Source of the DNA: a virus
Virus record (IMG/VR): IMGVR_UViG_3300022744_000001
Span: 2,022 to 66,021 of that record
Length of the DNA: 64,000 nucleotides
Strand: one strand, 5' to 3'
This document shows, piece by piece, positions 19,325-41,840 of the stretch (its first letter is position 1; each line of letters starts with the position of its first letter). The translations under genes were made by a program, and so were the position numbers. The notes under the pieces were generated by a model, which was not told where the DNA came from, searched no databases, and saw nothing but the letters and a program-made list of their open reading frames with translations.

Positions 19325-19381
19325 GTTGTGCACGGTGTGCGGTTGTACTGAGTGTGCAAGCGGCCCGGTGTAGAGGGCTCC

Positions 19382-20602: not shown

Positions 20603-21220
20603 ATGGATCTCTCTGAAACGATTTCTGCCCTTCAACCCGGCGAGATGAAAACCATCATTTCTGCGACGGTTGAGAAACCCAAGCGTGACCTGCAACTTCT
20701 CCCGCTGGTCTACCATCCGAGCCCAATCCTCAACGAGGAGTGCTTTGAGATCCCTGCGGTGACCGAGGACATCGTTTGGTTGGCCAAGGACATGCTCTTC
20801 ACGATGATGAAGCGGCATGGGGTGGGGCTCGCGGCGCCCCAGGTGGGCCACAGCCTTCGACTGTTCGTGGTGGACGTCGGCTGGGTTCGGGGAATCGAGC
20901 ACTCGGACCCCAAGGTGTTCATCAACCCCAGGGTAACTCCCGCGAGCCCGAGCCAGGACAGGGCTCCGGCCGAAATCTCCTCTACCGAGGGCTGCCTCTC
21001 CTTCCCTGGCACGAAGGCTACTTTGCCGCGCTACGAGGTCGTCCACGTTCATGCCCTGGGCATCGACGGCAGGCCATTTGAGCTGTACGCGGACGAGCTT
21101 CTAGGACGCGTGGTGCAGCACGAGAACGACCACTTGAACGGGGTTACCATCCACCCGCACCTCGGTCGCATGCAGCGCCAAGAACTCCGGAAGGGGCTCG
21201 AGAAGGCCCGCCGCGGCTAA
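20603..21220 (+). CDS. def: peptide deformylase
   Basis: All three PDF motifs are present: GVGLAAPQVG, EGCLSFPG and QHENDHLNG. Confidence 0.85.
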   Translation: MDLSETISALQPGEMKTIISATVEKPKRDLQLLPLVYHPSPILNEECFEIPAVTEDIVWLAKDMLFTMMKRHGVGLAAPQVGHSLRLFVVDVGWVRGIEHSDPKVFINPRVTPASPSQDRAPAEISSTEGCLSFPGTKATLPRYEVVHVHALGIDGRPFELYADELLGRVVQHENDHLNGVTIHPHLGRMQRQELRKGLEKARRG

Positions 21221-27192: not shown

Positions 27193-27320
27193 GGTCCCTC
27201 AACTGGAAAACAGCTGCTACCCAAGGCTGGTTTGACAGTAGTTTATTGGGGGCTTTCGCTAACCCTTCAAGCTTCGATAAGCCTCTCATGTAGAGCGCTA
27301 GGCATGAAGGTGCGGTACCC

Positions 27321-28517
27321 ATGACTGCCTCAGCTATCTGCCAGGTCCAAGACGGCGCTGGGCCGTTCCTGACCCCTACCAACGGCCTCGACGTCACTCA
27401 AGGCAATACAGTCTCGATCACGCTCGCTTCAACGACTGACGTGTCTGTTTGGACGCTTCAGATCTTTGGCGTGGATGAAGTCACAGCGACGGCTCCAACG
27501 CTTTCAGGGGTAGACCCGGACACGCACCAAGTCACGACCCCAGGGACAACCGTCACGTTCACGGTTCCGGCTGGGGCGGGCATCGGTCGAGCGTTCCTCA
27601 TTCGCTCTTCCGTGAATGGTGGTGGGTCGAGCCTCACCACGACTTTCGGGCTGTACACGCTGACGTCTTCTGGGCGACGGGTTGGCGCAGTCGGAGAGCG
27701 CTTTGAAGGCAACAACCTTTTCGGGTGGGCCTCGACGGTCAACTCCATCATCCGTGCCGGTGGCGGGGGTGGCGGACTCCCTCCGTTGGCGGGGGTGCAG
27801 TACGCAGTTTTGATGGAAGACCCAGTCGGGGTCCTCACCTTCCAGCAACTGACTCAGAACATGATTGCCCCGGCTTTCGCGATTGCGTCTTTCGCGAAAA
27901 CCGCCCCCAGCGGTTCCGCAACCTTGGTTCGCCGCGGGCAGCTGCTCTCAGGTCTCACAGCAGCCGCGACCTACACTTCCGGGCCCCCAACCTCGGCGAG
28001 CATCGCCAACACGTTAGGGGGCAGCTCAGACGTCGGGGACAACCCCCCGGGGCCTTGGACGATCAACGCCCCTTACGCCACGGCTTCCATGTCTGGGGCG
28101 ATCAGGCGGATCGGTTCTGACCTTGGGTTGAACCCAACCTGGACCTTCACTCTGACCGCCACGAAAAACGCACTCTCGGTTCAGAGCGGCGTGACCGTCA
28201 CATGGACCCGAGACGTGTACTGGGGCGTCGGCCCGGCTGGCTTTTCCACAGAAGCGGACATCGTGGGGTTGGCGGGTAGCACGCTTCAAGTCGGGCGAAA
28301 CCGCATCATCACGGTGAGCCCCTCGAACGAGAAAGTCTACTACGCCTACCCCAAGGCAGATGGCCTCGCCACATTCACTTTGAACAACTTCCCAGCCTCG
28401 TTCCTGGCTCCGGTCGAGGTGCAAGTCACCAACGTCAACAGCGTGACGAGCACCTACTACCTCTACGAGTCAACGAACCTCCTCACCGGTTCCAACCTCA
28501 ACTTCGTGGTGACGTGA
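27321..28517 (+). CDS. hypothetical structural protein (398 aa)
   Basis: Clean ORF between the two fibre genes, rich in Thr, Ser and Gly. Confidence 0.55.
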   Translation: MTASAICQVQDGAGPFLTPTNGLDVTQGNTVSITLASTTDVSVWTLQIFGVDEVTATAPTLSGVDPDTHQVTTPGTTVTFTVPAGAGIGRAFLIRSSVNGGGSSLTTTFGLYTLTSSGRRVGAVGERFEGNNLFGWASTVNSIIRAGGGGGGLPPLAGVQYAVLMEDPVGVLTFQQLTQNMIAPAFAIASFAKTAPSGSATLVRRGQLLSGLTAAATYTSGPPTSASIANTLGGSSDVGDNPPGPWTINAPYATASMSGAIRRIGSDLGLNPTWTFTLTATKNALSVQSGVTVTWTRDVYWGVGPAGFSTEADIVGLAGSTLQVGRNRIITVSPSNEKVYYAYPKADGLATFTLNNFPASFLAPVEVQVTNVNSVTSTYYLYESTNLLTGSNLNFVVT

Positions 28518-28518
28518 C

Positions 28519-29820
28519 ATGGCCATCGGGTTAACTGACATTCTCGTTGCGCTTGGCAACTTCCCGCTGCTCGAGGACATCTTCTTGAAGGGGGGTTTTC
28601 GGGCGGTAGATAACCCCGAAGCGAGAGACGACATTGACCCCAGCATGCAGAAAAGCGGGATGCTCGTTTGGGTGGAGTCCGAAGGGAAGCTCTACCAAAT
28701 GGCAGAAGGGTGGGTTGAGGTCTCTCTTGGGCCAGGCAACGGCTCTACTAACACAGTCCCCGTTTGGTCAAACCCCTCGAACACTCTGGCAAACAGCACA
28801 GATTCGATCGGGGCGGTTAGGTTAGGCTCAAGTGCCGGACAAAACATCATCGTACAACCCACAGCATCCCTTGATGCTGGAGGTGCGAACGTAGAGGTCA
28901 ACGGAGGGGCGGGCGGGCCGACTTCCAATGGAGGTTATGCCTTACTTTACGGCGGTGCTGGTGGGGAGACATCTGGAGATGGCGGCAACGCCTATGTGGC
29001 AGCAGGCGATGCGACCACCGAGGGTCACGGCGGGTACGTTACAATCAATGGTGGTTATGCCGAAGGCACTGACAAAAACGGCGGAAGTGTTCATCTTGAA
29101 GGCGGGCTCCCAACTGGACTCGGGTCACCTGGGAGTATATCGCTCCAAGCGGCGGGCAACACTTCAACAGTTGGCGGCAACGTTGTCCTTAGTGTTGGAG
29201 AGGGCTCGTCCGCCGCTAATGATGGTACCGTACTAATTGCTACCGTAGGAAACTCCAGTCGCGCAGCCCGTCTTCAGTTCCTTGGGAGTAACACTAACCC
29301 CATCAGCATCAAAGCCCCGGCAACGGTCACCACCTACGAGATGACGCTTCCTAGCTCCCAAGGCGGAGCAGGTACCGTTCTGACCAACGATGGTAGCGGC
29401 GGTTTGACTTGGTCCGCTGGTGGCGGAGGCATGGGGGACTATCAGATTAACGCTTCTGTAACGTCCCCTGACGCCACTCCCTTGACGGTTCACACTTACA
29501 CGGACCCAGTGAACACTGATCGTGCCATTATTTGCTATGACATTTTAGCGACGGCGATTGGGCCTTTCGGGAACCGCTACGCGTCGTTCAAAATCAATGC
29601 AGTGTTCGAAATGGACGCCATTTCCGAAGTGATCCACCCTCGAGAAGTCACATACCTAAACGGCCCTGTTCGGACAAACCCCGCTTGGAATGTGCAGTTT
29701 GACATCGTGGGGGCTGACATCAATCTTCAAGTGGTTGGCGAGTCCAATGGTACCGAAGGAACACGATGGCGGATCGTCGGGTTCATTACTCGCAGCGGCT
29801 TCACGTTCTCCGAGGCGTGA
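28519..29820 (+). CDS. glycine-rich tail-fibre-like protein, paralogous to 24190..27192
   Basis: It shares the TN(T/G)VPVWS motif and GGAGG-type repeats with the 1000-aa protein. Confidence 0.7.
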   Translation: MAIGLTDILVALGNFPLLEDIFLKGGFRAVDNPEARDDIDPSMQKSGMLVWVESEGKLYQMAEGWVEVSLGPGNGSTNTVPVWSNPSNTLANSTDSIGAVRLGSSAGQNIIVQPTASLDAGGANVEVNGGAGGPTSNGGYALLYGGAGGETSGDGGNAYVAAGDATTEGHGGYVTINGGYAEGTDKNGGSVHLEGGLPTGLGSPGSISLQAAGNTSTVGGNVVLSVGEGSSAANDGTVLIATVGNSSRAARLQFLGSNTNPISIKAPATVTTYEMTLPSSQGGAGTVLTNDGSGGLTWSAGGGGMGDYQINASVTSPDATPLTVHTYTDPVNTDRAIICYDILATAIGPFGNRYASFKINAVFEMDAISEVIHPREVTYLNGPVRTNPAWNVQFDIVGADINLQVVGESNGTEGTRWRIVGFITRSGFTFSEA

Positions 29821-30262
29821 TGAGCTTCGATAGCACGTCGAGGAATCCGACGTTGTAGAGCGCGTTGGGTCGTCGCTCCTGGACGACCCGAATGCACTCC
29901 TCCCCGGTCATGCCCGTGAGCATGTGCAAGGCCAGGGCACTCACGAGCCCACTACGGTTCCACCCCATCTGGCAGGTGACCAGCACCGGTCTCTTGGCTT
30001 GGAGGGCCAGGGTGACGCCCCGAGCCCCCTTTACAGCGATGTGCAGCTCCCGCTCCGTGATGGGGCGCTCTTGGTCCTCGTTTGGGGCGTAGATGACCTC
30101 GAGCCCAGGGAACCGCTTCTCCGGGGGCTGGTTCTCTTTGGCGCAGAGAACGAGCACCTTGAACCCCACGGAAGCCAAGTAGCTCCCCTCGGGGGGCTTG
30201 GAGCCTTGCCAGAGGCCAGGGTGGATTTCGTTGACATCGAGCCCTGCGGGGTAAACCTTCAT
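29801..30262 (-). CDS. dual-specificity / protein-tyrosine phosphatase (CX5R)
   Basis: VTCQMGWNRSG matches the HCxxGxxRS P-loop. Confidence 0.75.
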   Translation of the reverse strand: MKVYPAGLDVNEIHPGLWQGSKPPEGSYLASVGFKVLVLCAKENQPPEKRFPGLEVIYAPNEDQERPITERELHIAVKGARGVTLALQAKRPVLVTCQMGWNRSGLVSALALHMLTGMTGEECIRVVQERRPNALYNVGFLDVLSKLITPRRT

Positions 30263-30326
30263 GCCTCAGTGACACCGGTATAGAAACTCCAGGGCTCCTG
30301 CGTTACCAGGGCAAGGAGAACGAGCC

Positions 30327-30584
30327 ATGTCGAAGTGTCAAGCCGGAACCCACATCACCATCGAACGCGACGGTCGCGAAATCGACGTCCTGGTCAACGG
30401 GTTCGTCATCCTGGAAGAGGGTCAGGTTGTTGATGCGGAGTTCACCGACGCCCACGACGACAACGGCGAGATCAAGCTCACCGAGAGCGAAATCGATACC
30501 GCTACCGACGAACTGATGGGCTCCTATGACAACCATCTCGAGGACGGGGAGGAGTTCCCGGAGCATGGCTACGACCACGACTGA
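30327..30584 (+). CDS. small acidic hypothetical protein (85 aa)
   Basis: Highly acidic clean ORF. Confidence 0.45.
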   Translation: MSKCQAGTHITIERDGREIDVLVNGFVILEEGQVVDAEFTDAHDDNGEIKLTESEIDTATDELMGSYDNHLEDGEEFPEHGYDHD

Positions 30585-30742
30585 GGGTTTGTTTTAGGTA
30601 GACGATCGCAGGCATTCTGGAGTACAACATCCAGACTGATCTTTTGTGACATCCCTGTGTCAGACCATGCGCAACATATAGCGCCGCTGACCATGAGGCT
30701 CTACTACTCCTAGTAGAGCCTGTAAATTCGTTACGTCAAGGG

Positions 30743-30771
30743 TTGACGCGTTACAAAATGCGGGATACGTT
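30743..30771 (+). promoter_or_regulatory. sigma70-like promoter TTGACG-N17-TACGTT
   Basis: ttgacg at 30743-30748, a 17-nt spacer and tacgtt at 30766-30771. The same architecture recurs at 62979 and 63150. Confidence 0.45.
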
Positions 30772-30841
30772 GCGGGTACTTTCCAAGGTTCATTGCCACC
30801 TTGAAGCGCAAGCCCCCAACTCCAAAACCCCCGGAAAGTGA

Positions 30842-30874
30842 AAGCGGCTGACCCCCTCAGCCGCTTTCGTCTTT
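30842..30874. terminator. intrinsic terminator hairpin (10-bp perfect stem, CCCCC loop) followed by a T-rich tract
   Basis: aagcggctga-ccccc-tcagccgctt followed by tcgtcttt. It overlaps the stop codon of minus-strand ORF 30857..31156. Confidence 0.55.
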
Positions 30875-31156
30875 ATGCATGCAGGGGAAGCAAATCCGGT
30901 AGGTCGTGAACCGGCCATTGAGCGGGCGATACGCTTCTCCTTTGGCAGGGATGGCTCTCGCGCACAAGCAGCACTCCCAAGGCTTTTTGGTGATGGTCCG
31001 GGCCCAGAGGACTCGGACAGTGCAGCCCTCGACGGTCAGGTTGGAGAGGTAGGAGGTCCCGGGGAGGAACTCCTTCTTGTTCGTGATTGAGACCACAGAG
31101 TAGGTTTGGCACAGAACCGGTGTCAGTGTCACCGATGCGTGATGCCCCCGCCCCAC
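30857..31156 (-). CDS. Cys-rich hypothetical protein (99 aa)
   Basis: ORF with a CCLC...CFPC pattern. It overlaps the ARH start. Reality uncertain. Confidence 0.3.
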   Translation of the reverse strand: MGRGHHASVTLTPVLCQTYSVVSITNKKEFLPGTSYLSNLTVEGCTVRVLWARTITKKPWECCLCARAIPAKGEAYRPLNGRFTTYRICFPCMHKDESG

Positions 31157-32049
31157 TTCTTGGTCAAGCCATCGCTGATGCCCTGGGTATGCCGTTCGAG
31201 TTGTGTGGTCCCGAAGATCCCAAGTTGAAGGACTGGGATGGGCAGACCTACCACTCGAGCGAGTACCACAAGCTCATGCCAGGGCAGTGGTCCGACGACA
31301 CGATGATGGCCAAGCTCCTGGCCGAAAGCCTTCTCCAGGTGGGCGGGTATGACCCGGAGAACGCAGCCAAACGCTACCTGGGTTGGTACAAGAGCGGGGA
31401 CCACCGGGGGATGGGGACGGCGACCAGGACCGCCCTCGGTCGCCTGGACGAGGGCAAGGATTGGTCGGAGTCCGGAGTCGAGAACGCCCAGGGGAACGGG
31501 ACCGCCATGAGGGCGATCCCTCTCGGGGTTTTCTTCCGGAACCGTCTCGACCTCCTCGTCGAGGCTGCAAGCTTGGACTCTCACATCACCCATCGGTCGG
31601 ACGAGGCTGAGGAGGGGGCGATCGCAATCGCCCTGGCTGCCGCATACCTCTACCGTGGCCTCCCGAAGGATGAGCTTCCAGAGGCTATCTCGAGGCGGCT
31701 CAAAGACGGCCCCATCAAGACCGGAGTCATGAAGTGCGAGTTCTACCTTCGCACCGGCGGAGTCTCGGTTGGGGAAGCACTCCGAGTCATTGGCACGAAA
31801 CCCCACGTGGTCCAGACCGTGCCCGCTGCCCTGGCCGCGTTCCTTTTGTCCAAGACCTACCTGGAGGCTGTCCAAGCTGCGATTCGGGCCGGGGGCGATA
31901 CGGACACCACAGCCGCCATCGCCGGTGGCCTGGCGGGCATCTACTACGGTCGCCAAGCCATCCCCGCGGACCTCATCCCTCCGCTCGAGGCCGCAGACGC
32001 CCTCAGTGGGCTCGACTTCCAACTCAACACCCCTGCCCGTGAACTCTGA
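31135..32049 (+). CDS. ADP-ribosylglycohydrolase (ARH/DraG family)
   Basis: GQAIADALGMPFE, GQWSDDT, GNGTAMR and GGDTDTTAAIAGGLAGIYYG are characteristic ARH motifs. Confidence 0.85.
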   Translation: MRDAPAPLLGQAIADALGMPFELCGPEDPKLKDWDGQTYHSSEYHKLMPGQWSDDTMMAKLLAESLLQVGGYDPENAAKRYLGWYKSGDHRGMGTATRTALGRLDEGKDWSESGVENAQGNGTAMRAIPLGVFFRNRLDLLVEAASLDSHITHRSDEAEEGAIAIALAAAYLYRGLPKDELPEAISRRLKDGPIKTGVMKCEFYLRTGGVSVGEALRVIGTKPHVVQTVPAALAAFLLSKTYLEAVQAAIRAGGDTDTTAAIAGGLAGIYYGRQAIPADLIPPLEAADALSGLDFQLNTPAREL

Positions 32050-32207
32050 GACCCTCCGCTGCATGGGGCTGGGGATTTGCCCCCAGTGCAAAGGGCCAGC
32101 TCGGAATGAGCCACCCTCGGGCTACTTCTGGTGTCCAAAGTGCAAGCGAATTCTTTGGCATTTGCGCCGGATAGCGGCTACCACTGCCAAATCGGAGGGT
32201 TCGGGGG

Positions 32208-33047
32208 ATGCTGGAAGACAACAAGCTGAGGATTTTCGAGAGGTTCTCGGTAGACAAGGAGCTTCCGAAGTTCCAAAAGCCGAAGGGTGAGAACGTAGAA
32301 CTCGTTCGAGCGGACGGGTCCACGGACCACGCCGTGATTTACGAGTTTGCGATCGACCTGGTCAATAGAGGCTGGACAGAGGGCATCGAAATCACGGAAG
32401 CCGTCGCGGACCGGATTACGTTGCGGGGCCGAGTCAAAGGGTTTCGTGGCTGGCTCCGGAAGCTGCTCCATTGGGTCACCCAGAGGCCGAGCATCACCAT
32501 CCCTCAGTTCTTCACCCTCGTGAAGGGTTCCGTGAAGGACCTCGAGATCGTGGAGGCGCGTGCCAAGGGGTACGAGGAGGCCATCTCCAACGCCCGCAAG
32601 TTCGGCCAGAAAGCCCTCGTTGAGGAGCTGACACAGAACCTGGTTGCGGTCCGGCTCGAGGCGCACTTGGTCACGATGGGGCTGACCAAGTACCTGACCG
32701 AGGACAAGCTCGTCGAATTCGTGAAGCTGTGCCCGAAGGGGCTCCGGCTCGACTGGATCGCGAACTTTGGGCGTCGCATCCCCACAGAGCTGCTCGAGCG
32801 CAAGCTCGCCTGCGACGAACGGTTCCTCTTCGACAACTACGTCATCCTCCACTACGACCCCAAAGGCAAGAGCTGGAAGGAAACGGAAGCCGAGAAGGCC
32901 GCCCGCAAAGACCCGATCCTCTTCGGGGTCATGAAGGGGCGCCGCCAGCTCTACTACCTCGGGGACTGGGTCGATGAGCTTTGCGACCTCACGCTCGACC
33001 AGATTGCAGATACGATTGGGAAGAGTGCGATCGGGGAGCTGAAATAA
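32208..33047 (+). CDS. hypothetical protein (279 aa)
   Basis: Clean ORF upstream of the HNH gene. No motif was recognised. Confidence 0.5.
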   Translation: MLEDNKLRIFERFSVDKELPKFQKPKGENVELVRADGSTDHAVIYEFAIDLVNRGWTEGIEITEAVADRITLRGRVKGFRGWLRKLLHWVTQRPSITIPQFFTLVKGSVKDLEIVEARAKGYEEAISNARKFGQKALVEELTQNLVAVRLEAHLVTMGLTKYLTEDKLVEFVKLCPKGLRLDWIANFGRRIPTELLERKLACDERFLFDNYVILHYDPKGKSWKETEAEKAARKDPILFGVMKGRRQLYYLGDWVDELCDLTLDQIADTIGKSAIGELK

Positions 33048-33051
33048 CCCA

Positions 33052-33729
33052 GTGGACAGTAGCGCAGAAGAGTTTGAGCAGATAGTGCGCGAGAGTTTAT
33101 CCGCTGCACAAGCCCTACGAAAACTGGACCGGGCTACCGTGGGGTCCAACTACGACTGGGTGCGTCGGGAGGTTCAACGGTTTGGGCTCGACACATCTCA
33201 CTGGGGAAGAGCTGGTGCTCGCAATACAACCCCGAACCTCGATGAGGTTTTCATTGAGAATGGTGCCTACTCAACAGGTCTTGTTAAGACGATCATTCTT
33301 CGTGAACGTTTACTCCCGGAGCTGTGTGCTGAGTGTGGATTAGGACCCTCCTGGAGGGGTAAGAAATTAGTCCTCCGCCTTGACCACAAAAACGGGAAAC
33401 GAAGTGATCACCGGCTCGGAAACTTGCGTTTTCTGTGTCCGAACTGCGACTCTCAAACAGAGACATTTTGCGGTCGCAACAAACGTCTCCCAGCCAAGCT
33501 GTGTAAATGCGGGGTGGCAATAGGGCAGCAGTCCGCAGCTTGCAGGTCGTGCACGGCAAAAAGCAGAAAACCAACAACGAAAATCGTTTGGCCTCCATTC
33601 GAGGAAGTGCAGGAAAGGGTCAAAAACACCTCCTTCCTTGCCACAGCCAAACATCTTGGTGTATCAGATAATGCAGTTCGGAAGTTTTTACGCTCCCGTG
33701 CCCGAGTGGTTGAAGGGGCAGGATTCTAA
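33052..33729 (+). CDS. HNH homing endonuclease
   Basis: LDHKNGKRSDHRLGNLRFLCPNCDSQ is an HNH motif. GC content is locally lower. The stop codon lies inside the downstream tRNA. Confidence 0.8.
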   Translation: MDSSAEEFEQIVRESLSAAQALRKLDRATVGSNYDWVRREVQRFGLDTSHWGRAGARNTTPNLDEVFIENGAYSTGLVKTIILRERLLPELCAECGLGPSWRGKKLVLRLDHKNGKRSDHRLGNLRFLCPNCDSQTETFCGRNKRLPAKLCKCGVAIGQQSAACRSCTAKSRKPTTKIVWPPFEEVQERVKNTSFLATAKHLGVSDNAVRKFLRSRARVVEGAGF

Positions 33730-33783
33730 ATCCTTGGGGCCGCAAGGCCCACGCCGCAGGTTCGAACCCTGCCGGGAGCGCCA
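33692..33783 (+). tRNA. class II (Ser-like) tRNA with anticodon CUA, a putative amber suppressor; CCA encoded
   Basis: GCTCCCGTGCCCGAGTGGTTGAAGGGGCAGGATTCTAAATCCTTGGGGCCGCAAGGCCCACGCCGCAGGTTCGAACCCTGCCGGGAGCGCCA. The acceptor stem is 7 bp and perfect, the D-arm is Ser-like (GCCCGAGTGGTTGAAGGG), the anticodon loop is TTCTAAA, there is a long variable hairpin and a canonical T-arm. Confidence 0.5.
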
Positions 33784-33784
33784 G

Positions 33785-34111
33785 TCAAGAGCGTAAAGCG
33801 AGAGGAAGCCGCTGAACAAGTCGTTTTGCGGCGGGCTCGAGCGCGATGGCGGTCACCTCGTTGTCTCGGTCCGGCTCCCGAAACAAGCTGACCCTGAACC
33901 CTCGACGGGTCGCATCCTCCGCGAGACGAGTCAGGGAAGGCTCATCAGGGCTCTCGAGGAGAGCGAGGTAGTTCGACTGCTCGAACCACTCCCGCTCGAC
34001 CTCCGGGTGCTCCGCGACGAACCCTCGCATGGCGTGAGCTGCTTGGACAGCTTGCGCGCCAAGAGGGAGGTCGCTTCGGACAATGAGGTAGAGTTTGTCA
34101 CCCATCCTCAT
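33785..34111 (-). CDS. peptidyl-tRNA hydrolase, Pth2-like
   Basis: KLYLIVRSDLPLGAQAVQAAHA and a Pth2-like length (108 aa). The stop codon is 1 nt after the tRNA CCA. Confidence 0.55.
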   Translation of the reverse strand: MRMGDKLYLIVRSDLPLGAQAVQAAHAMRGFVAEHPEVEREWFEQSNYLALLESPDEPSLTRLAEDATRRGFRVSLFREPDRDNEVTAIALEPAAKRLVQRLPLALRS

Positions 34112-34535
34112 CGTCGGTACCTTCCTCGTCTTCGTCGTCGCTCAGGTGCAACCCAACCCTGTGAATGACCTCCTCTGGAATCCCGGCCGCCCGGAGCTTC
34201 CCGTCCCAGTCAGCGTAGGGGCGGTCCCCGCCACCCCACTTGCGCTCGCCCACGAAGAACATGGGAGGGTCACTGTGGATTTTCCCGTGAGGGGTCTCAA
34301 CGTAGGGCCAGATCTCCAAGGGCGAGTCGTTGCAGCACCCGCAGTTGTGCCGCATGTCGAACTTGGTCACCTGGCTGTTCACTGAGGCTGAGCAGTAGGC
34401 GACCTTGTTCCAGCGGCCGACATGCTTGCGCAGATCAGGGTAGAGTTCGGCCAGTTTGGCCAACCTCTCCGCTTCCTGGTCCTTTGCCCGGGCTTCCCCC
34501 CGGGCTTGTTGGATCTCTTCAGCGATGGTACCCAT
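34098..34535 (-). CDS. hypothetical protein with acidic C-terminal tail
   Basis: Clean ORF overlapping the Pth2 start. Confidence 0.45.
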   Translation of the reverse strand: MGTIAEEIQQARGEARAKDQEAERLAKLAELYPDLRKHVGRWNKVAYCSASVNSQVTKFDMRHNCGCCNDSPLEIWPYVETPHGKIHSDPPMFFVGERKWGGGDRPYADWDGKLRAAGIPEEVIHRVGLHLSDDEDEEGTDDEDG

Positions 34536-34538
34536 GGC

Positions 34539-34991
34539 TCAGGCCGCCTTCCGCTCAAACTTCGGGCGGAGACCCGCAAGCCACATACCGATGTCGTCCT
34601 CGGAGATAGCGGCTCCGCCCCCGAAGCTCTGGAGAAGGCTGTGGAGCGCTCGAGGGCTCAAGACCTCCGCGGTCGTTCGCTCGATTTGGACATACTCGAG
34701 GCCCCGGAGCATTCCGAGCAGCACCAGGTGCAGTCGGATCCAGTACCGGCCATCCCGCTTCTGGTCCCACAGGCGAGACCGGTCGTAACCGGTCTCGGGG
34801 CGGCGGTAGGGTTTGAGGGCTCGTTTGCCGTTGACCCTCCTACCATCCTCACCCCGCTGGGAGCGGAGGGTGGCGATGGCGTCGGCCGACCCGGGCGTCC
34901 AAGCCAGCTCTTGGAGCTGGCGGCGGATCCCCATCTGGGCGTCGGTCAGGGTCTTGAGTTCAGTGCGCAGCTTCTTGATAGTTTCCTTCAT
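34539..34991 (-). CDS. hypothetical protein (150 aa)
   Basis: Clean ORF. Confidence 0.45.
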   Translation of the reverse strand: MKETIKKLRTELKTLTDAQMGIRRQLQELAWTPGSADAIATLRSQRGEDGRRVNGKRALKPYRRPETGYDRSRLWDQKRDGRYWIRLHLVLLGMLRGLEYVQIERTTAEVLSPRALHSLLQSFGGGAAISEDDIGMWLAGLRPKFERKAA

Positions 34992-35504
34992 GATTTCCTC
35001 CAGTTCGCGTTGTGTTCAGGTCGATGACGAGACTGAACGGCGCGTGGAGGACCACGAGGAGCGTGCGCTAAAGGATGTAGCTAGTGACCCATGACTTCCA
35101 TCCTAAACACCGGACCGCGGGGGTCAAGAGGGGAAATTCGATCTGGTCGGTTTAGGCTCGAGGGGGCTCGCGCGTTACCAGGGCAAGGAAGGCTGGTGTC
35201 AGATGGCAACGAAGAGCGGATTCGTGTTCAAGAAGGAAGGGTTCGTGATCGAGTTCAAGCAGGACGACGGTCGTTGGACCGACGACTTGGGAGGCGTGAC
35301 CCTCAACGAGTTCAGCGCCGAATCGGACGCGCAGGTTGTCCTGGACTCTCTTCGCACCCTGGAAGGGGTTTGGGCGAGCCGGGAGTACCGCATCAGCCCG
35401 GTGTGGTTCGAGTGAGCTTGTAGAGGGGGTTCCGTTCCCTCTCGCGCTCGACAAGGTCACGACAGAACTCGCACTCGGCTGCATGGCCGGACAGGGGCTC
35501 GTGG

Positions 35505-36146
35505 CTAAAAACCACCCGCTCCAAGTTGGCGGCGGACAAATGAGAGGAGGCGTCCTGCTCGAGAGCTGAGGCCACCTTCAATAGGGCTTGGCGGAGTTCT
35601 TCGTCCATGCTCCTTAAGACGCTCGAGCCCGCCTGAAACTGAGCAGTGGTCATACTCTTTTCTGGCCCATCGCCCCCGCTCCTCGGCCCGGTAGGCCACC
35701 AGCTCGGGGTCGCTCCCGTGCACAACGGCCCGGGTGTCGAAGTCGATGAGGTAGTCCTCCTCGTTGAAGGGGAGGGGCCATTTGATAAGGGTCTCGCAGA
35801 CCACCGGGTGGTCGTTCGCGCTCATGTTTTGGCGCAGGACCCGGTTTCGCCCCGCAAGAGCGTTAGGCACCTCCTCGTAACGCCGAACCCGTCCGCCCAC
35901 GAACACGACGCCCGATTCGTCCACACGCGACCCCTGGACTCGAGTCGAGAACCGGAAGCCATAAGGCCGCGCGCCAACCCGGGCCTCGGCTTCTTGGGTC
36001 AAATCCAAAGCCAGGCGAAGGTCCCAAACCGGAACGGGGATCGCCCGCTCCTCGATGTACATGGAGCCTTGGAAGAGAAACAGGACGTGGTGGGTCTCTC
36101 CGTACCCCACGACTCTTCCGCTATCGGGATGCAGTAGCTCGGACAA
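35505..36146 (-). CDS. hypothetical protein (213 aa)
   Basis: Clean ORF. It was examined for Tpt1/2H-phosphoesterase motifs, which were not convincing. Confidence 0.45.
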   Translation of the reverse strand: MSELLHPDSGRVVGYGETHHVLFLFQGSMYIEERAIPVPVWDLRLALDLTQEAEARVGARPYGFRFSTRVQGSRVDESGVVFVGGRVRRYEEVPNALAGRNRVLRQNMSANDHPVVCETLIKWPLPFNEEDYLIDFDTRAVVHGSDPELVAYRAEERGRWARKEYDHCSVSGGLERLKEHGRRTPPSPIEGGLSSRAGRLLSFVRRQLGAGGF

Positions 36147-36461
36147 GAGGAATCTCCTTCGGCAAAGTGTTCACGTACGCCTCGAGCTTGGAGCGCTCGG
36201 CGGCGGTGAGTTGTAAAAAGGTAGACACCTGGCGAAGGTCGGCGGCAAGGCGGTCTTTGCTGCTGAACGGAAACATTCCGCTCTCAATCATGATGGCTTT
36301 CGCCATCATCGAAACAAATCCGCCGTTGTTGTACGAGTTTGTAAGCGCGCTCCGGACACACAGCATAGGGGCCTCCGGGGGTAGGCAACCGATGACGTGC
36401 AGTAACATGCCACAATAGCCGGAACTTCCCGAGCGCGCCAGGGCCCGGTGTCCAAGAGGGC

Positions 36462-36956
36462 ATGATCAAGTACCTCAAGGGCGACGCTACCGAACCCCAG
36501 GGCGCCGGAACCAAGTTCATCATCCACGTGGTCAACGACCGAGGCGGTTGGGGCGCAGGTTTCGTTTTGGCCCTCTCCCGCAAGTGGAAGGGGCCCGAGC
36601 AGTCGTATCGGAAGTACAGCCCACTCACTCTCGGCCAGATTCAGGTGGTGCCCGTCGAGCGACATCCGGGAGGCGTCCCGTACCTCTACGTCGTGAATAT
36701 GTGTGCCCAAACGGGGTACGGCCGCGGCAACCGGAACCTCCACCGTACCAACGAACCCGACGACCAGATCCCGTTGCGGTACGACGCCCTCCAGACGTGT
36801 CTTGAGCAAGTTGCAGAAGAGGCCACTGTCCTCGGCGCTGCAATCCACGCTCCTCGGTTCGGGTGCGGGCTCGCCGGGGGAAAGTGGGAGCTTGTCGAGC
36901 CCATCATTCAAAGTGCCCTTGAAGACCTTCCCGTTTTCATCTACGACCTGCCGTGA
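36462..36956 (+). CDS. macro domain protein (ADP-ribose binding/processing)
   Basis: IIHVVNDRGGWGAGFVLAL and AIHAPRFGCGLAGGKWELVEPII resemble the Gly-rich loops of MacroD/Appr-1-pase macro domains. Confidence 0.65.
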   Translation: MIKYLKGDATEPQGAGTKFIIHVVNDRGGWGAGFVLALSRKWKGPEQSYRKYSPLTLGQIQVVPVERHPGGVPYLYVVNMCAQTGYGRGNRNLHRTNEPDDQIPLRYDALQTCLEQVAEEATVLGAAIHAPRFGCGLAGGKWELVEPIIQSALEDLPVFIYDLP

Positions 36957-37339
36957 TGGACACGAAAAAGCTCATGAAGCAGCTCATGGAGATGACCGAA
37001 GACTACATGCAAAAGCTGCTCTTCAAGTCGTGGTGCCTTCAGCAACGCGACGAACGGAAAGCACGCTTGGCTGCTGTTATGGAGCTTTCCGTGGAACTCG
37101 ACAAAATCCGACGGGTCAACCAGTTCGGCACAGGGTTGGCGGAGACGGTGCTCGAGAACATCATCCAAGGCGAATGGGAGCGAGCGCATGAAGGGGCTCA
37201 ACTCTTTCGCTTCAACGAAGAGAACCAAGAGTTGCGAAACCAGTTCGCGCCCCTTTGGAACAAGTTCGTTGTCTTGACCGAGGCAGCCTGCGTCTTGACT
37301 CGAGTACGGGAGCAAGTAGGGAGTGTGAAGCCGAGCTGA
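36953..37339 (+). CDS. hypothetical protein (128 aa)
   Basis: ATGA-coupled to the macro-domain gene. Confidence 0.45.
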   Translation: MMDTKKLMKQLMEMTEDYMQKLLFKSWCLQQRDERKARLAAVMELSVELDKIRRVNQFGTGLAETVLENIIQGEWERAHEGAQLFRFNEENQELRNQFAPLWNKFVVLTEAACVLTRVREQVGSVKPS

Positions 37340-37355
37340 TGGTGTACCCGCCCTC

Positions 37356-37838
37356 ATGCGACCTGCTACGCGAGAGGGTTGGAAGATCATCTCTATCACG
37401 GCTCACCGAACGTTGACCGGGCAAGACCGAACGTTCATCCGAGCTGGGATGAAGCTGCTGGTACAAAACCCCACCGTCGATGCGATCTACGTCGGGGGCG
37501 CTCGAGGGGGAGATACGATCGCGCTCCAAGCCGCCGCAGAGTTCCGAAAGGGCTCGAGGCCGCAGTTGGTTGTCGTCTGTCCCGACACAGAGGCGGCCCA
37601 ACCTTTTCAGGCCCGCCAATGGTTTCACTTGGCTGACGAGGTCATCGAGCTTGGAAACCCCATCACTCGAGAGGACGGCTTTGAGTCCTACCGCATCCGC
37701 AACAAGTACCTTGTTGATCACTGCACCACTCTCGTCGCCTTCTACAACGGAGACAAAGACACGGGCACCGGGCATGCCGTCCAGTATGCCGAGTCTCTCG
37801 GTGTTGTTGTCCGTACAGTCCCGATTGTCGGAAGGTAA
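37356..37838 (+). CDS. DprA/Smf-like SLOG Rossmann-fold protein (domain only)
   Basis: GGARGGDTIALQAA, LVVVCPD, RNKYLVDHCTTLVAF and GTGHAVQYAESLGV parallel DprA motifs. Confidence 0.6.
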   Translation: MRPATREGWKIISITAHRTLTGQDRTFIRAGMKLLVQNPTVDAIYVGGARGGDTIALQAAAEFRKGSRPQLVVVCPDTEAAQPFQARQWFHLADEVIELGNPITREDGFESYRIRNKYLVDHCTTLVAFYNGDKDTGTGHAVQYAESLGVVVRTVPIVGR

Positions 37839-37841: not shown

Positions 37842-38243
37842 ATGCTCACAGCTATCCTGCTCCTCTGCATCGCCATCGTTGCCATGGTGGGCGTTCTGAT
37901 CTTCGAAACGGCCAACCTCCGAGGGGCGTTCCACGAGATGCAGAAAGCTCTCCAAGACGCCGTTCGAACGAGTGAAGAACTCGACGCGAAGGAGGACGAA
38001 GAGGGGGATCAGCTCGAGATTGAATGGCGAGACAGGTTCAACGAGATGCAAGACACGCTGAACCGCCTCGAGTTGAACCTGGGGCGGGTCAATCAGCGTG
38101 TGGCCCGGCTACAAGCCAAGTCAAAGGCGGGCAGCACGAAGAAGAAGGCCAAGTTCGACCTCATCCAAGGGGGCCAGAAGAACCCCCAAGAGGAGCGTCC
38201 GCAGGTGATTCAGCTTCACCCTGAGCCTCGAGACCCAAGCTGA
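37842..38243 (+). CDS. membrane-anchored coiled-coil protein (133 aa)
   Basis: N-terminal transmembrane helix LLLCIAIVAMVGVLIF followed by a charged helical region. Confidence 0.5.
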   Translation: MLTAILLLCIAIVAMVGVLIFETANLRGAFHEMQKALQDAVRTSEELDAKEDEEGDQLEIEWRDRFNEMQDTLNRLELNLGRVNQRVARLQAKSKAGSTKKKAKFDLIQGGQKNPQEERPQVIQLHPEPRDPS

Positions 38244-39036
38244 AAATCTTGCTCACTTGGGGGTTGCCGTAATCAGAATGCCCCGTGTAGACGGTGAGGT
38301 TTTCAAAATGCTTGTACTCCCCCGGTGAGTGCGTGTGCCCGCAGAGCACGGTGAACTTGACCTCGGGGAACAGGGACGCGACGTCCGCCAACATGGCGCC
38401 GAACGTGAGGTTCGTGAACCACGGGAGCCAGTTCTTGTCGGAGATGCGGTCCCGGTAAAAGCAGGACTCCCGAAAGGGCGGGATGTGCGTTGCAAAGAAA
38501 ACCTGCTTGTACTTCCGAGCCGCGGCGACGAGGTTCGGCCGAGCTTCCTCAGCCATTTGCTTGGCCACCTCCCTGCACTTTTCGATGTGCCCGTATCGCT
38601 CCTTGTCTCGAAACTCCTCGATGACCTTGAAGTCGTTCATGATGACGTTCGACCCTTCGGGGTCCCCCGAACGAGCGTCGTACCAACCCCCGTGGCCAAC
38701 GAGCGCGATTTCCGGAGTCAGCTCCACGACGCCCGCGGCGTTCAGCCAGGAGAGGTTCTTCACGGCTTGGCTGTCATGGAGAACCTGTGCGATCAGGCGA
38801 CCCTTCTCGAGAGAGCCGTTATAGAAGTCGTGGTTTCCGAGCACGAAATAAACGGGGATCTCAACCTTCGATGCGAACAAGACCAGGTTGAAGGCGAGTG
38901 AGGGGCACTCCGCGATATCCCCGGTCATCACGATGGCGTCCGCTTGGGTCAGTCTGCGAACGTACTTCGCGAACTTCGCGGTACCCGCGGGAGGTAGGAA
39001 ATTGAAATGGGGGTCCGTGATCCAGGCGAGGCGCAT
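38161..39036 (-). CDS. calcineurin-like metallophosphoesterase
   Basis: The motifs ITDPH, GDIAE, GNHD and CGHTH are present. Confidence 0.8.
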   Translation of the reverse strand: MRLAWITDPHFNFLPPAGTAKFAKYVRRLTQADAIVMTGDIAECPSLAFNLVLFASKVEIPVYFVLGNHDFYNGSLEKGRLIAQVLHDSQAVKNLSWLNAAGVVELTPEIALVGHGGWYDARSGDPEGSNVIMNDFKVIEEFRDKERYGHIEKCREVAKQMAEEARPNLVAAARKYKQVFFATHIPPFRESCFYRDRISDKNWLPWFTNLTFGAMLADVASLFPEVKFTVLCGHTHSPGEYKHFENLTVYTGHSDYGNPQVSKIFSLGLEAQGEAESPADAPLGGSSGPLG

Positions 39037-40830: not shown

Positions 40831-41199
40831 TTGATGTCACAGGAAACAGCAATCGAGACCCGCCCTTGTGAACTGTGCAAGGGGAGCGGAAGAAGGACCG
40901 GAACCAACCACCCGTGCTTGGTTTGCGATGGGATCGCCAGATTCCCGTCTTTCGATTCGGAGCGCATCCTGGGGCTCATCTTGACCCAAGGCCGCCTTAC
41001 GTCCGAGATTCATGCGATGACCGAGGACGAGACCTTGAACAGTCGGGCCTTTTTCGTCTGGGCGACCATCAGGAAACTCAAAGGGGTGTCCGACCCCATG
41101 GAACAAGTCCACGCCGGGCTCGCCATTACAGGGGACCCCTTCCGTACGGAGCTGGAAACTTTGGCTGGAGAGCTTTACACGAAAGAGGTTGCGGCGTGA
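40831..41199 (+). CDS. zinc-finger hypothetical protein (122 aa)
   Basis: The motif CELCKGSG...CLVCDG is present. Confidence 0.45.
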   Translation: MMSQETAIETRPCELCKGSGRRTGTNHPCLVCDGIARFPSFDSERILGLILTQGRLTSEIHAMTEDETLNSRAFFVWATIRKLKGVSDPMEQVHAGLAITGDPFRTELETLAGELYTKEVAA

Positions 41200-41840
41200 A
41201 CGCAGCACAGTACCTGGGCAAGCGGTGGGAGAAAACGTTGCAGGTGCTTCGGGTGCCTTCAGCCCCCGCCACCACGGCAATGATCTCAGAGATCCTTCAC
41301 CAGTACGCTGAGCCCGGCCGGGCCTACCACAACCTCGAGCACCTTCGCTTTTGCTTCACCGTGATAGACGACGTCATGGCGAAGCTCCCCGGCATCGGCG
41401 CCGTAGAACTCGCGCTCTGGTACCACGATTTCTTCTACGACACGCACGCTCAAGACAACGAGGAGCGAAGTGCTGCTCACGCTCGAGACCAACTCATTGG
41501 TTCTGGGTTCGGCCGCGGCTTCGCCAACCAAGTCGAAAACCTGATCCTCGCCACGAAGCACTCGAACGAGCCGAAGACACGGGAAGCCAAAGTCCTGCTC
41601 GACGTGGACATCTCCATTTTCAGCGCGACCACAGAAGAGTACGACGCCTACGAGACCGGGATTCGTCGCGAATACCACTGGGTCCCTGAAGAACAGTTCC
41701 GGGCCCGCCGTGTTGAAGTGCTCGAGCGCTTCCTGTCTCGGCAGTGGATTTATGCTACGCCCGAGTTCAGAAGCGGGCCGTACGAGACGCTCGCTCGAGC
41801 CAACCTCACGCGCGCCATTGCGGCACTGAAGGCCCCATGA
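41196..41840 (+). CDS. HD-domain metal-dependent phosphohydrolase-like protein
   Basis: A GTG start overlaps the upstream stop codon. The motifs HNLEH...WYHD...D are present. Confidence 0.55.
   Translation: MNAAQYLGKRWEKTLQVLRVPSAPATTAMISEILHQYAEPGRAYHNLEHLRFCFTVIDDVMAKLPGIGAVELALWYHDFFYDTHAQDNEERSAAHARDQLIGSGFGRGFANQVENLILATKHSNEPKTREAKVLLDVDISIFSATTEEYDAYETGIRREYHWVPEEQFRARRVEVLERFLSRQWIYATPEFRSGPYETLARANLTRAIAALKAP

What the first reader, a model, noticed from the sequence alone, without database searches (positions are those of the whole stretch)
29801..37838. Concentration of ADP-ribose-processing enzymes: phosphatase, ADP-ribosylglycohydrolase, macro domain, SLOG/DprA-like
A CX5R dual-specificity phosphatase (29801-30262), a DraG/ARH-family ADP-ribosylglycohydrolase (31135-32049), a macro-domain protein (36462-36956) and a DprA-like SLOG Rossmann protein (37356-37838) all lie within 8 kb. 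A metallophosphoesterase (38161-39036) and an HD-domain phosphohydrolase (41196-41840) follow immediately. Macro and ARH domains are the two known enzyme classes that erase ADP-ribose from proteins, DNA and RNA. A phage carrying both suggests reversal of host ADP-ribosyltransferase defences (DarT-like DNA ADP-ribosylation, RNA ADP-ribosylating toxins), or tight control of a phage-encoded ADP-ribosyltransferase located elsewhere in the genome.
Basis: partly seen in the sequence, partly recalled or inferred. Interest (0 to 1): 0.7.

Follow-up and report, generated by a model that had tools for sequence, protein, structure and literature searches.

The report
ADP-ribose erasers in a huge phage
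A roughly 448-kb uncultured phage carries both known kinds of ADP-ribose-removing enzyme, plus several phosphatases, within 12 kb. The enzyme calls are real, but this is a further example of phage gene sets already described, not a new kind of system.

Summary

The window is part of a 448-kb phage contig. Two relatives at 50-60% protein identity keep the order DSP, ARH, amber-suppressor tRNA, PTH2, macro-SLOG, HD.

Only macro-SLOG is a tight module, with an ATGA stop/start overlap in both relatives. The other genes lie in several transcription units on both strands. In more distant huge phages ARH sits beside NAD+ salvage genes, without macro, SLOG or DSP.

No Pfam-detectable ADP-ribosyltransferase lies within the window plus 10 kb on each side.

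SCO6735 removes ADP-ribose from thymidine in DNA and rescues cells from DarT, and its Asn and Gln are conserved here. Phage macro proteins (AdfM) are proven anti-DarT2 factors. An anti-DarT-like role is therefore the best inference for macro. The ARH substrate is unknown.

Macro/SLOG/Nudix co-occurrence in phages was already described in 2022. Verdict: new member of a known kind, moderate interest.

The parts
29801..30262 (-). Cys-based dual-specificity/tyrosine phosphatase (DSPc), 153 aa
   Evidence: Pfam DSPc 37.9 bits against a cut-off of 33.5. PHROG 10650 'dual specificity phosphatase'. P-loop C97-QMGWN-R103-S and general-acid D63 are present. Conserved in L007 (57% identity) and L009 (55%).
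31135..32049 (+). ARH/DraG-family ADP-ribosylglycohydrolase, 304 aa (alternative starts at 31087 and 31189)
   Evidence: Pfam ADP_ribosyl_GH E=5.7e-73. PHROG 6572 E=4e-45. Solved relatives: 2cwc, 1t5j, 8za7, Tri1 (6dre) and DraG. Invariant D15, E22, D54, D55, G120-N121-G122, H153, D255, T256, D257, T258. NCBIfam Tri1 and DraG equivalog scores fall far below their cut-offs.
33692..33783 (+). tRNA with CUA anticodon (amber suppressor) and a long variable arm; lies inside the block and is not an ADP-ribose enzyme
   Evidence: ARAGORN. Rfam tRNA 52 bits against a gathering score of 29. CUA-anticodon tRNAs sit in the same ARH-PTH2 interval in L007 (one copy) and L009 (two copies).
33785..34111 (-). 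PTH2-like peptidyl-tRNA hydrolase domain protein, 108 aa
   Evidence: Pfam PTH2 44.4 bits against a cut-off of 23. PDB Bit1 (1q7s) E=1e-4. Conserved in L007 and L009. A PTH2 gene also lies about 4 kb from ARH in L012 and L013.
34098..34991 (-). Two conserved ORFs of unknown function (145 aa at 34098-34535; 150 aa at 34539-34991), upstream of PTH2 on the same strand
   Evidence: No Pfam or PHROG hit. tblastn matches in L009 for both (60% and 39% identity) and in L007 for the 150-aa ORF only.
36462..36956 (+). Macrodomain protein of the ALC1-like (TARG1/DarG/SCO6735) class, BT1257/SCO6735 subfamily, 164 aa
   Evidence: phmmer against PDB: BT1257 E=5e-39, SCO6735 E=1.4e-34, at 47.6% and 44.4% identity. 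Equivalents of SCO6735 Val25, Asn27, Gln85, Gly126 and Gly128 are present (V23, N25, Q83, G134, G136). Lys34 is replaced by Ala32. The mobile loop is longer and Arg-rich (PMC9411070). PHROG 335 E=4e-27. Weak DarG hits only.
36953..37339 (+). 128-aa unknown ORF between macro and SLOG; its start overlaps the macro stop codon
   Evidence: GTGATG overlap with the macro stop. A homologue lies upstream of macro in L009 (37% identity). No family hit.
37356..37838 (+). Stand-alone SLOG-superfamily Rossmannoid protein (YpsA/DprA-like), 160 aa
38161..39036 (-). Calcineurin-like metallophosphoesterase, 291 aa
   Evidence: Pfam Metallophos E=6e-15. PHROG 1649. Motifs DPH, GD, GNHD, H and GHTH are present. 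Present in L007 (50% identity), absent from L009.
41196..41840 (+). HD-superfamily phosphohydrolase of the COG4339 type, 214 aa
   Evidence: Homologue names. PHROG 19425 E=8e-23. Invariant H45, H49, H77, D78, D136, D138. Marginal profile match to the YedJ HD protein, E=0.076. The AF2 model's closest folds are class-I phosphodiesterases, but weakly. Conserved in L007 and L009.

Best explanation
This is a conserved accessory region of a roughly 448-kb uncultured phage. It holds several independently transcribed 'eraser' enzymes, not one integrated ADP-ribose pathway.

The one true module is the macro-(o128)-SLOG operon. The macrodomain belongs to the SCO6735/BT1257 branch of the TARG1/DarG class. 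It most likely strips ADP-ribose from thymidine in single-stranded phage DNA, and possibly from uracil in RNA or from acidic protein residues. That would make it an orphan-antitoxin-type counter to DarT2-like host toxins, as AdfM is in PhiKZ and T4. The translationally coupled YpsA/DprA-like SLOG protein is inferred to assist, either by binding single-stranded DNA as the DprA Rossmann core does, or by binding or cleaving the released ADP-ribose-type nucleotide.

The ARH enzyme has an intact two-metal site. It is inferred to remove a different ADP-ribose linkage, most plausibly on protein arginine, as its DraG and Tri1 relatives do.

The DSP, metallophosphoesterase and HD enzymes are genuine phosphohydrolases in the same conserved block, but they are not shown to act on ADP-ribose.

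Shown: domain identities, catalytic residues, gene coupling and synteny. Inferred: all substrates and the counter-defence role.
For: - Domain and residue evidence.
- Macro is 44% identical to SCO6735, with the Asn27 and Gln85 equivalents conserved. SCO6735 de-ADP-ribosylates thymidine in DNA and rescues E. coli and Streptomyces from DarT; Q85A and the Asn27 mutant abolish activity (PMC9411070).
- Phage macro proteins AdfM of PhiKZ and T4 neutralise DarTG2 (PMC13309987; 10.1101/2025.11.20.689424). Phage NADAR AdfN neutralises DarTG1 (PMC11825919).
- Macro-SLOG stop/start overlap in two relatives.
- No ADP-ribosyltransferase family has a Pfam hit on record for any called gene in the roughly 84 kb examined, which fits orphan erasers.
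- The ARH family is widespread on 380-620-kb contigs with invariant catalytic residues.
- Mixed strand orientation and interspersed unrelated genes.
- In L011-L013 and Serratia phage BF, ARH occurs without any homologue of the window's macro, SLOG or DSP nearby.
Against: - No biochemical data exist for any of these proteins.
- The macro protein lacks the Lys34 equivalent that matters for SCO6735 activity on DNA.
- It has no detectable sequence similarity to PhiKZ AdfM (blastp E=1.9) and only weak DarG hits.
- The host, and whether it has DarT, is unknown.
- Iyer et al. 2022 (PMC9503650) argue from distribution that phage Macro and SLOG domains mainly target small ADP-ribose-derived signals, not macromolecules.
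- ARH specificity cannot be read from sequence: it scores below the Tri1 and DraG equivalog cut-offs.
- The block DSP..ARH..macro-SLOG..HD is kept across about 50% protein divergence with turnover of intervening genes. This could reflect functional linkage that I am discounting.
Confidence: 0.45

Rival explanations
1. Signal or toxin scavenging. Macro, SLOG, ARH, the two Nudix proteins and the phosphoesterases divide the labour of destroying small NAD+-derived immune molecules, such as Thoeris cyclic ADP-ribose isomers, His-ADPR and ADP-ribose-1''-phosphate, instead of repairing macromolecules.
For: - Iyer et al. 2022 (PMC9503650, sections 3.4.4 and 3.7.4) report that Macro, SLOG, NADAR and Nudix co-occur in DNA viruses more than expected by chance. 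They also report SLOG-Macro neighbourhoods and fusions, and predict degradation of cyclic ADP-ribose-like signals.
- Two Nudix genes lie in the window.
- The HD model resembles cyclic-nucleotide phosphodiesterases.
Against: - The closest characterised macro homologue acts on DNA and protein adducts (PMC9411070).
- The same paper argues that ARH (ARG) domains prefer macromolecular adducts.
- SLOG matches DprA, ShosA and YpsA better than ThsA or LOG.
- The Nudix proteins are generic MutT-like and lie 20-30 kb away.
Confidence: 0.22
2. One integrated ADP-ribose removal and disposal pathway. ARH and macro cut ADP-ribose off targets, then DSP, metallophosphoesterase, HD and Nudix degrade it. This would be a phage version of the ARG-plus-phosphatase systems predicted in bacteria.
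For: - Iyer et al. 2022, section 3.8 describe bacterial ARG-centred neighbourhoods. There ARG is coupled to a rhodanese-phosphatase-superfamily enzyme, sometimes with calcineurin-like, HD, Macro or NADAR genes, and with no transferase nearby.
- Here DSP and ARH are divergently arranged about 0.9 kb apart, and about 0.5 kb apart in L007.
- The whole set is syntenic in three phages.
- L009 carries a vWA (Ro60-like) gene between DSP and ARH.
Against: - No Nudix or WYL transcription factor is present.
- DSP and ARH are separated by 5 kb in L009.
- The metallophosphoesterase is missing from L009.
- The genes are not co-oriented.
- ARH in L011-L013 and Serratia phage BF lacks these partners.
- The DSP's nearest relatives are protein tyrosine phosphatases.
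Confidence: 0.15
3. Writer-eraser control. The erasers tune or confine the activity of the phage's own ADP-ribosyltransferase or transferases (Alt/ModA/ModB-like, or sirtuin-like) encoded elsewhere on the contig.
For: - Large phages often encode ADP-ribosyltransferases (PMC9503650).
- In Streptomyces BE-cluster phages the same macro family sits next to a gene annotated as Sir2.
- About 80% of the contig could not be examined.
Against: - No ADP-ribosyltransferase or sirtuin family has a Pfam hit on record for any called gene in the window plus 10 kb on each side, nor in the 20-kb loci of relatives.
- Known writer-eraser pairs are usually adjacent.
Confidence: 0.12
4. Nucleotide, NAD+ or RNA housekeeping. 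ARH and macro recycle ADP-ribose-type by-products, for example of NAD+ turnover or 2'-phosphotransferase RNA repair, as part of the phage's nucleotide metabolism, and do not counter defence.
For: - In L012 and L013, ARH is flanked by NadM-like and NAMPT genes and lies near an NAD+-dependent ligase, Thg1 and PTH2.
- In Serratia phage BF, ARH is 4 kb from NMNAT and PnuC.
- In Streptomyces phage Francob, the same macro family lies among RNA ligase, polynucleotide kinase and tRNA genes.
- The window holds dCTP deaminase, NT5C, nucleoside hydrolase and Nudix genes.
Against: - No NAD+ salvage, RNA ligase or Tpt1/KptA gene is detected in the window plus 10 kb on each side.
- NAD+ salvage in phages is itself regarded as a counter to NAD+-depleting defences, so this overlaps with counter-defence.
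Confidence: 0.1

Closest known systems
SCO6735 (Streptomyces coelicolor) and BT1257 macrodomains; ALC1-like class with TARG1 and DarG
   Same: 44-48% identity over the whole domain. It has the same longer mobile loop and the same replacement of the TARG1 Lys84/Asp125 dyad by Gln and Ala. The Val25, Asn27, Gln85, Gly126 and Gly128 equivalents are conserved (PMC9411070).
   Different: It is phage-encoded. Lys34 is replaced by Ala. The mobile loop is about 9 residues longer and rich in Arg rather than Lys. It is translationally coupled to a SLOG gene in relatives. Its activity is untested.
AdfM (PhiKZ gp104; T4 Tk.4), phage macrodomain anti-DarT2 factors
   Same: Stand-alone phage macrodomain of the DarG-related class, in a jumbo phage, with no DarT partner. 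The conserved catalytic Asn is present (PMC13309987).
   Different: No detectable pairwise sequence similarity to PhiKZ gp104 (blastp E=1.9), so it is a different subfamily. No evidence for a phage nucleus here.
Viral SLOG-Macro/NADAR neighbourhoods and fusions (Iyer, Burroughs, Anantharaman, Aravind 2022)
   Same: A YpsA/DprA-like stand-alone SLOG sits next to a Macro gene in a large phage, with Nudix genes in the same genome.
   Different: No NADAR was detected in the region examined. ARH is also present, which that survey found in only about 5% of jumbo phages.
DraG, Tri1 and other bacterial ARH-family arginine ADP-ribosylhydrolases
   Same: Same Pfam family and the same two-metal Asp/Thr motifs.
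   Different: It scores far below the NCBIfam equivalog cut-offs (108.7 against 490 for Tri1; 96.9 against 337 for DraG). No DraT or Tre1 partner is present. Its closest solved relatives (2cwc, 1t5j) carry only generic or hypothetical names in the PDB.
Bacterial ARG-centred systems with rhodanese-phosphatase-superfamily partners (Iyer et al. 2022, section 3.8)
   Same: ARH without a linked transferase, lying near a Cys-based phosphatase, a calcineurin-like enzyme, an HD enzyme and a Macro gene.
   Different: It is encoded by a phage, not a host. It lacks the Nudix or WYL regulator and the chaperones. The genes are not an operon.

Membership tests
ARH / ADP-ribosylglycohydrolase (Pfam PF03747) | Profile match above the curated cut-off | tested here: met
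   246.5 bits against a cut-off of 26.2.
ARH / ADP-ribosylglycohydrolase (Pfam PF03747) | Two-metal site: Asp/Thr pairs (SDDT and GGDTDT) and the TH motif | tested here: met
   D54, D55, H153, D255, T256, D257 and T258 are invariant in 16 homologues.
DraG or Tri1 equivalog (arginine-specific hydrolases) | NCBIfam equivalog score above the cut-off | tested here: not met
   Tri1 108.7 against 490; DraG 96.9 against 337.
Macrodomain, ALC1-like class, SCO6735/BT1257 subfamily | Significant full-length similarity to solved members | tested here: met
   E=5e-39 and 1.4e-34; 47.6% and 44.4% identity.
Macrodomain, ALC1-like class, SCO6735/BT1257 subfamily | SCO6735 functional residues Asn27, Gln85, Gly126/Gly128 and Lys34 | tested here: inconclusive
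   N25, Q83, G134 and G136 are present; Lys34 is replaced by Ala32 (PMC9411070).
Macrodomain (Pfam PF01661) | Pfam Macro profile above the cut-off | tested here: not met
   No hit at E<=0.01. The L007 homologue scores 14.9 bits against a cut-off of 22.
DarG antitoxin (DarTG2) | Adjacent DarT toxin, a C-terminal DarT-binding domain, and an equivalog score above the cut-off | tested here: not met
   The protein is 164 aa with a macro domain only. No DarT hit is on record for neighbouring genes. NCBIfam DarG gives 21.9 bits against a cut-off of 250. PADLOC DarG gives 23 bits over 34 residues.
AdfM (phage anti-DarT2 macro) | Removes DarT2-made ADP-ribose from DNA and rescues from DarT2 | not testable with these tools
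   Needs an assay. Sequence similarity to PhiKZ gp104 is absent.
SLOG superfamily, YpsA/DprA-like | Rossmannoid SLOG fold | tested here: met
SLOG superfamily, YpsA/DprA-like | Gly-rich nucleotide loop (GGxxGxD) and second conserved motif | tested here: met
   GGAxGxDT, ADE..EL and GT are invariant in 18 sequences.
SLOG superfamily, YpsA/DprA-like | Pfam YpsA or DprA profile above the cut-off | tested here: not met
   YpsA scores 17.2 bits against a cut-off of 27.7. Three homologues carry precomputed PF02481 hits. No PDB hit by sequence or profile.
DSPc (Pfam PF00782) | Profile above the cut-off, CX5R loop and general-acid Asp | tested here: met
   37.9 bits against a cut-off of 33.5. C97-X5-R103 and D63 are present.
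Calcineurin-like metallophosphoesterase (PF00149) | Profile above the cut-off and the five metal-binding motifs | tested here: met
   56.6 bits against a cut-off of 21.5. DPH, GD, GNHD, H and GHTH are present.
HD superfamily phosphohydrolase | H..HD..D metal motif on an all-helical fold | tested here: met
   Invariant H45, H49, H77, D78, D136, D138. The AF2 model is all-helical, with weak best matches to class-I phosphodiesterases. The Pfam HD profile itself gives no hit.
Bacterial ARG-centred system (Iyer 2022, section 3.8) | ARG tightly coupled to a phosphatase, plus a Nudix or WYL regulator, encoded by a cell | tested here: not met
   It is phage-encoded. No regulator is present. DSP is divergent and up to 5 kb away in L009.

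The most novel reading that the evidence does not exclude
The block kept across this phage clade (DSP, ARH, amber-suppressor tRNA, PTH2, two unknown ORFs, macro-SLOG, metallophosphoesterase, HD) may be a dedicated 'orphan antitoxin island'. Each enzyme would undo a different covalent lesion made by host toxin-type defences:
- macro-SLOG: ADP-ribose on DNA;
- ARH: ADP-ribose on proteins of the translation or transcription machinery;
- PTH2: blocked or acylated aminoacyl-tRNA;
- DSP: defence-kinase phosphorylation;
- metallophosphoesterase and HD: cyclic nucleotide signals.

The recurrent ARH-PTH2 proximity, seen in five huge-phage loci, would then reflect a shared target in translation.
Probability: 0.15. 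Interest if true: 0.7.

Novelty: new member of a known kind. Interest (0 to 1): 0.38.

Why it matters
No paper found in the held library reports a function for a phage ARH-family enzyme, although macro (AdfM) and NADAR (AdfN) counter-defence factors were proven in 2025-2026. This clade of 380-620-kb phages offers a widespread, catalytically intact ARH and a translationally coupled macro-SLOG pair as concrete test candidates. Showing what they erase would reveal which ADP-ribosylating defences matter in the uncultured hosts of huge phages. It would also settle whether viral SLOG partners handle DNA or small ADP-ribose signals. On present evidence this extends a described pattern; it does not reveal a new one.

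Tried and rejected
- Megablast of the 12-kb region against 50,697 phage records found nothing.
- A viral-contig scan with ARH found no confirmed relative.
- Sequence and profile searches of PDB with SLOG gave only noise; the fold search was needed.
- A PDB sequence search with HD gave nothing, and the profile gave only a marginal YedJ match.
- PADLOC gave nothing except a short DarG match for macro, so SLOG is not a sequence relative of ShosA.
- TAG recoding, suggested by the suppressor tRNA, was not supported in the window. 18 of 64 called genes end in TAG, and no TAG read-through ORF was convincing.
- Macro is not a close relative of PhiKZ AdfM (blastp E=1.9).
- ARH-macro proximity is not general. 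There is no macro within 12 kb of ARH in Serratia phage BF, and none within 10 kb in L011-L013.
- A search for a transferase: no ADP-ribosyltransferase or sirtuin family appears among the precomputed Pfam hits of any called gene in the window plus 10 kb on each side. The rest of the contig could not be fetched.
- Promoter and terminator scans were at background level.
- The Nudix proteins could not be assigned to ADP-ribose pyrophosphatases.
- Pfam found nothing for the unknown ORFs in the block or in relatives, apart from a treble-clef zinc domain in the 295-aa ORF and sub-threshold matches.

Full report
**What the window is.** The macro ORF is encoded, with identical protein sequence, on a 448,224-bp metagenomic contig (ENA ERZ27252002 k141_47206) and on shorter contigs from three other samples. 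The window has about 60% GC throughout. It carries eleven tRNA genes at 507-4239 and Gly-rich, fibre-like ORFs at 24190-29820. One ORF (50056-51189) matches PHROG 2087 at E=6e-101 and has relatives in 504 phage records. There is no nucleotide match to 50,697 phage genomes. It is best read as an uncultured huge phage. No capsid or terminase gene lies in the window, so that rests on indirect evidence.

**Checking the observation.**
- The DSP phosphatase passes the Pfam cut-off (37.9 against 33.5 bits). It has the C97-X5-R103 loop and Asp63, and its nearest solved relatives are archaeal tyrosine phosphatases and DUSP13.
- The ARH call is very strong (Pfam E=5.7e-73). The SDDT and GGDTDT metal motifs, an N-terminal Asp/Glu pair, GNG and the TH histidine are invariant in 16 homologues.
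- The macro ORF gives no Pfam hit. It matches the solved macrodomains BT1257 and SCO6735 at E=5e-39 and 1.4e-34, with 47.6% and 44.4% identity.
- The metallophosphoesterase passes Pfam and has all five metal motifs.
- The HD protein has no Pfam, NCBIfam or PDB sequence hit. It belongs to a large family that sources name 'predicted metal-dependent HD superfamily phosphohydrolase' and matches PHROG 19425 'phosphohydrolase'. It has invariant H45, H49, H77, D78, D136 and D138. It folds as an all-helical domain whose closest, though weak, structural matches are class-I cyclic-nucleotide phosphodiesterases.

**Anatomy and conservation.** The genes are not one operon.
- DSP is on the minus strand.
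- ARH is on the plus strand, about 0.9 kb away and divergent from DSP.
- Next come a 279-aa unknown ORF, an HNH-like ORF and a tRNA with a CUA anticodon.
- PTH2 and two unknown ORFs follow on the minus strand.
- macro, o128, SLOG and o133 are on the plus strand.
- The metallophosphoesterase is on the minus strand, HD on the plus strand, and a PAS-GGDEF protein on the minus strand.

Two relatives were found through the SLOG protein: L007 on a 469-kb contig and L009 on a 66-kb contig. At 50-60% protein identity they keep the order DSP, ARH, CUA-tRNA, PTH2, o150 (and, in L009, o145), macro-SLOG, HD. The genes in between turn over:
- the window's 279-aa ORF has no detectable match in either relative;
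- L009 has a Ro60-like gene and other ORFs between DSP and ARH;
- L009 lacks the metallophosphoesterase and the GGDEF protein.

In both relatives the SLOG ATG overlaps the macro TGA (ATGA). In the window the o128 ORF is inserted between them, and its start overlaps the macro stop. A third relative, L008, has the SLOG gene without macro or ARH nearby.

ARH homologues of 45-57% identity occur on many contigs of 380-620 kb.
- In two of these (L012, L013), ARH lies next to NadM-like and NAMPT genes, a UvrD helicase, a PTH2 gene about 4 kb away, Thg1, an HD_4 protein and an NAD+-dependent ligase.
- No homologue of the window's macro, SLOG or DSP is detectable in L011, L012 or L013.
- In Serratia phage BF, ARH is 4 kb from NMNAT and PnuC, with no macro within 12 kb.

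So the full 'concentration' is a feature of one clade. Only macro-SLOG behaves as a module.

**Search for a writer.** The precomputed Pfam hits for every called gene in the window and 10 kb on each side include no ADP-ribosyltransferase or sirtuin family. PADLOC finds only a short DarG-like match in the macro protein. About 80% of the contig could not be read with the tools, so a distant transferase is not excluded.

**Most likely mechanism.** The nearest characterised relative of the macro protein, SCO6735, removes ADP-ribose from thymidine in single-stranded DNA. It also inhibits DarT and rescues E. coli and Streptomyces from DarT. It uses Gln85 and Asn27 in place of the TARG1 Lys/Asp dyad (PMC9411070).
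- The window protein keeps the equivalents V23, N25, Q83, G134 and G136.
- It lacks the Lys34 equivalent (Ala32).
- It has a longer, Arg-rich mobile loop.

Stand-alone phage macrodomains, AdfM of PhiKZ and of T4, have been shown to neutralise DarTG2 by cleaning phage DNA (PMC13309987; bioRxiv 10.1101/2025.11.20.689424). Phage NADAR proteins do the same against DarTG1 (PMC11825919). TARG1-like macrodomains also reverse uracil ADP-ribosylation of RNA (PMC13036486).

I therefore infer that the macro protein is an orphan-antitoxin-type nucleic-acid de-ADP-ribosylase. The coupled SLOG protein would assist it, either by binding single-stranded DNA as the DprA Rossmann core does, or by handling the nucleotide product. 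ARH, with an intact active site, is inferred to remove a different linkage, most plausibly arginine-ADP-ribose as in DraG and Tri1. It scores far below both equivalog cut-offs, and I found no experimental work on any phage ARH. The three phosphohydrolases are real, but nothing ties them to ADP-ribose beyond proximity.

**Rivals.** Iyer et al. 2022 (PMC9503650) had already surveyed viral NAD+/ADP-ribose domains.
- They report Macro, SLOG, NADAR and Nudix co-occurring more than expected.
- They report SLOG-Macro neighbourhoods and fusions.
- They find ARG in about 5% of jumbo phages and SLOG in 31%.
- They favour degradation of small ADP-ribose-derived immune signals for Macro and SLOG.
- They describe bacterial ARG-centred systems coupled to Cys-based, calcineurin-like and HD phosphatases.

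The window resembles both patterns, but it lacks the regulator and the operon structure of the latter. The other alternatives considered are writer-eraser control and a housekeeping role in NAD+ or RNA metabolism. The NAD+ salvage context of ARH in distant relatives supports the housekeeping reading.

**Novelty and verdict.** All six proteins fall into existing PHROG families, and the general pattern has been published. What is new is modest:
- a specific huge-phage clade with both eraser classes a few kilobases apart in a conserved block;
- a translationally coupled macro-SLOG pair of the SCO6735 subfamily;
- a recurrent, unexplained proximity of ARH to PTH2 and, in this clade, to an amber-suppressor tRNA.

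I rate it a new member of a known kind, with moderate interest as a source of test candidates.

Noticed in passing
window 33692-33783 (+); L007 5872-5947 (-); L009 6823-6899 and 7158-7231 (-): There is a tRNA with a CUA (amber-suppressor) anticodon. In the window it is 92 nt with a long variable arm (Rfam 52 bits). CUA-anticodon tRNAs are conserved between ARH and PTH2 in two relatives. Yet 18 of 64 called genes in the window end in TAG, and no TAG read-through ORF was convincing, so recoding is not evident here.
   Followed up: partly
window 33785-34111 (-); L012 14025-14522; L013 15096-15566: A PTH2-type peptidyl-tRNA hydrolase domain gene lies within about 1.5-4 kb of ARH in five huge-phage loci, including distant ones that lack macro and SLOG. 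This association is not mentioned in the 2022 survey and remains unexplained.
   Followed up: partly
window 41982-43628 (-): A 548-aa protein has three PAS domains and a GGDEF diguanylate cyclase domain (motif GGDEY). It is phage-encoded, lies next to the HD gene, and is conserved at 59% identity in L007.
   Followed up: partly
window 507-4239 (-): An array of eleven tRNA genes: Arg x2, Ala, Glu x2, Thr, Asn x2, Lys x2 and Tyr.
   Followed up: no
window 33052-33729 (+): A 225-aa ORF has an HNH-like motif (LDHKNG...NLRFLCPNC) read by eye. Its 3' end overlaps the suppressor tRNA. It has no detectable match in L007 or L009, so it is probably a mobile homing-endonuclease insertion. There is no Pfam support beyond a weak HTH match.
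   Followed up: no
window 5575-5979 (+), 56844-57260 (+), 49166-50056 (-), 52063-52602 (-), 19352-20095 (+), 20603-21220 (+): Other nucleotide-related accessory genes are present: two generic MutT-like Nudix hydrolases, an inosine-uridine nucleoside hydrolase, an NT5C 5'-nucleotidase and a dCTP deaminase. There is also a peptide deformylase.
   Followed up: partly
L009 2042-3697 (-): A Ro60-like protein (TROVE plus vWA_Ro60) is inserted between the DSP and ARH homologues in a related phage contig.
   Followed up: no
L012 4155-7178; L013 6048-8540: Distant huge phages place their ARH gene directly downstream of a NadM-like (nucleotidyltransferase plus Nudix) gene and a NAMPT gene. It also lies near Thg1, a tRNA-synthetase-like gene, HD_4 and an NAD+-dependent ligase.
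   Followed up: no
window 39544-40431 (+): A 295-aa ORF has an N-terminal treble-clef zinc domain (Pfam zf_Tbcl, E=7e-13). It is conserved in L007 and L009, and its function is unknown.
   Followed up: no
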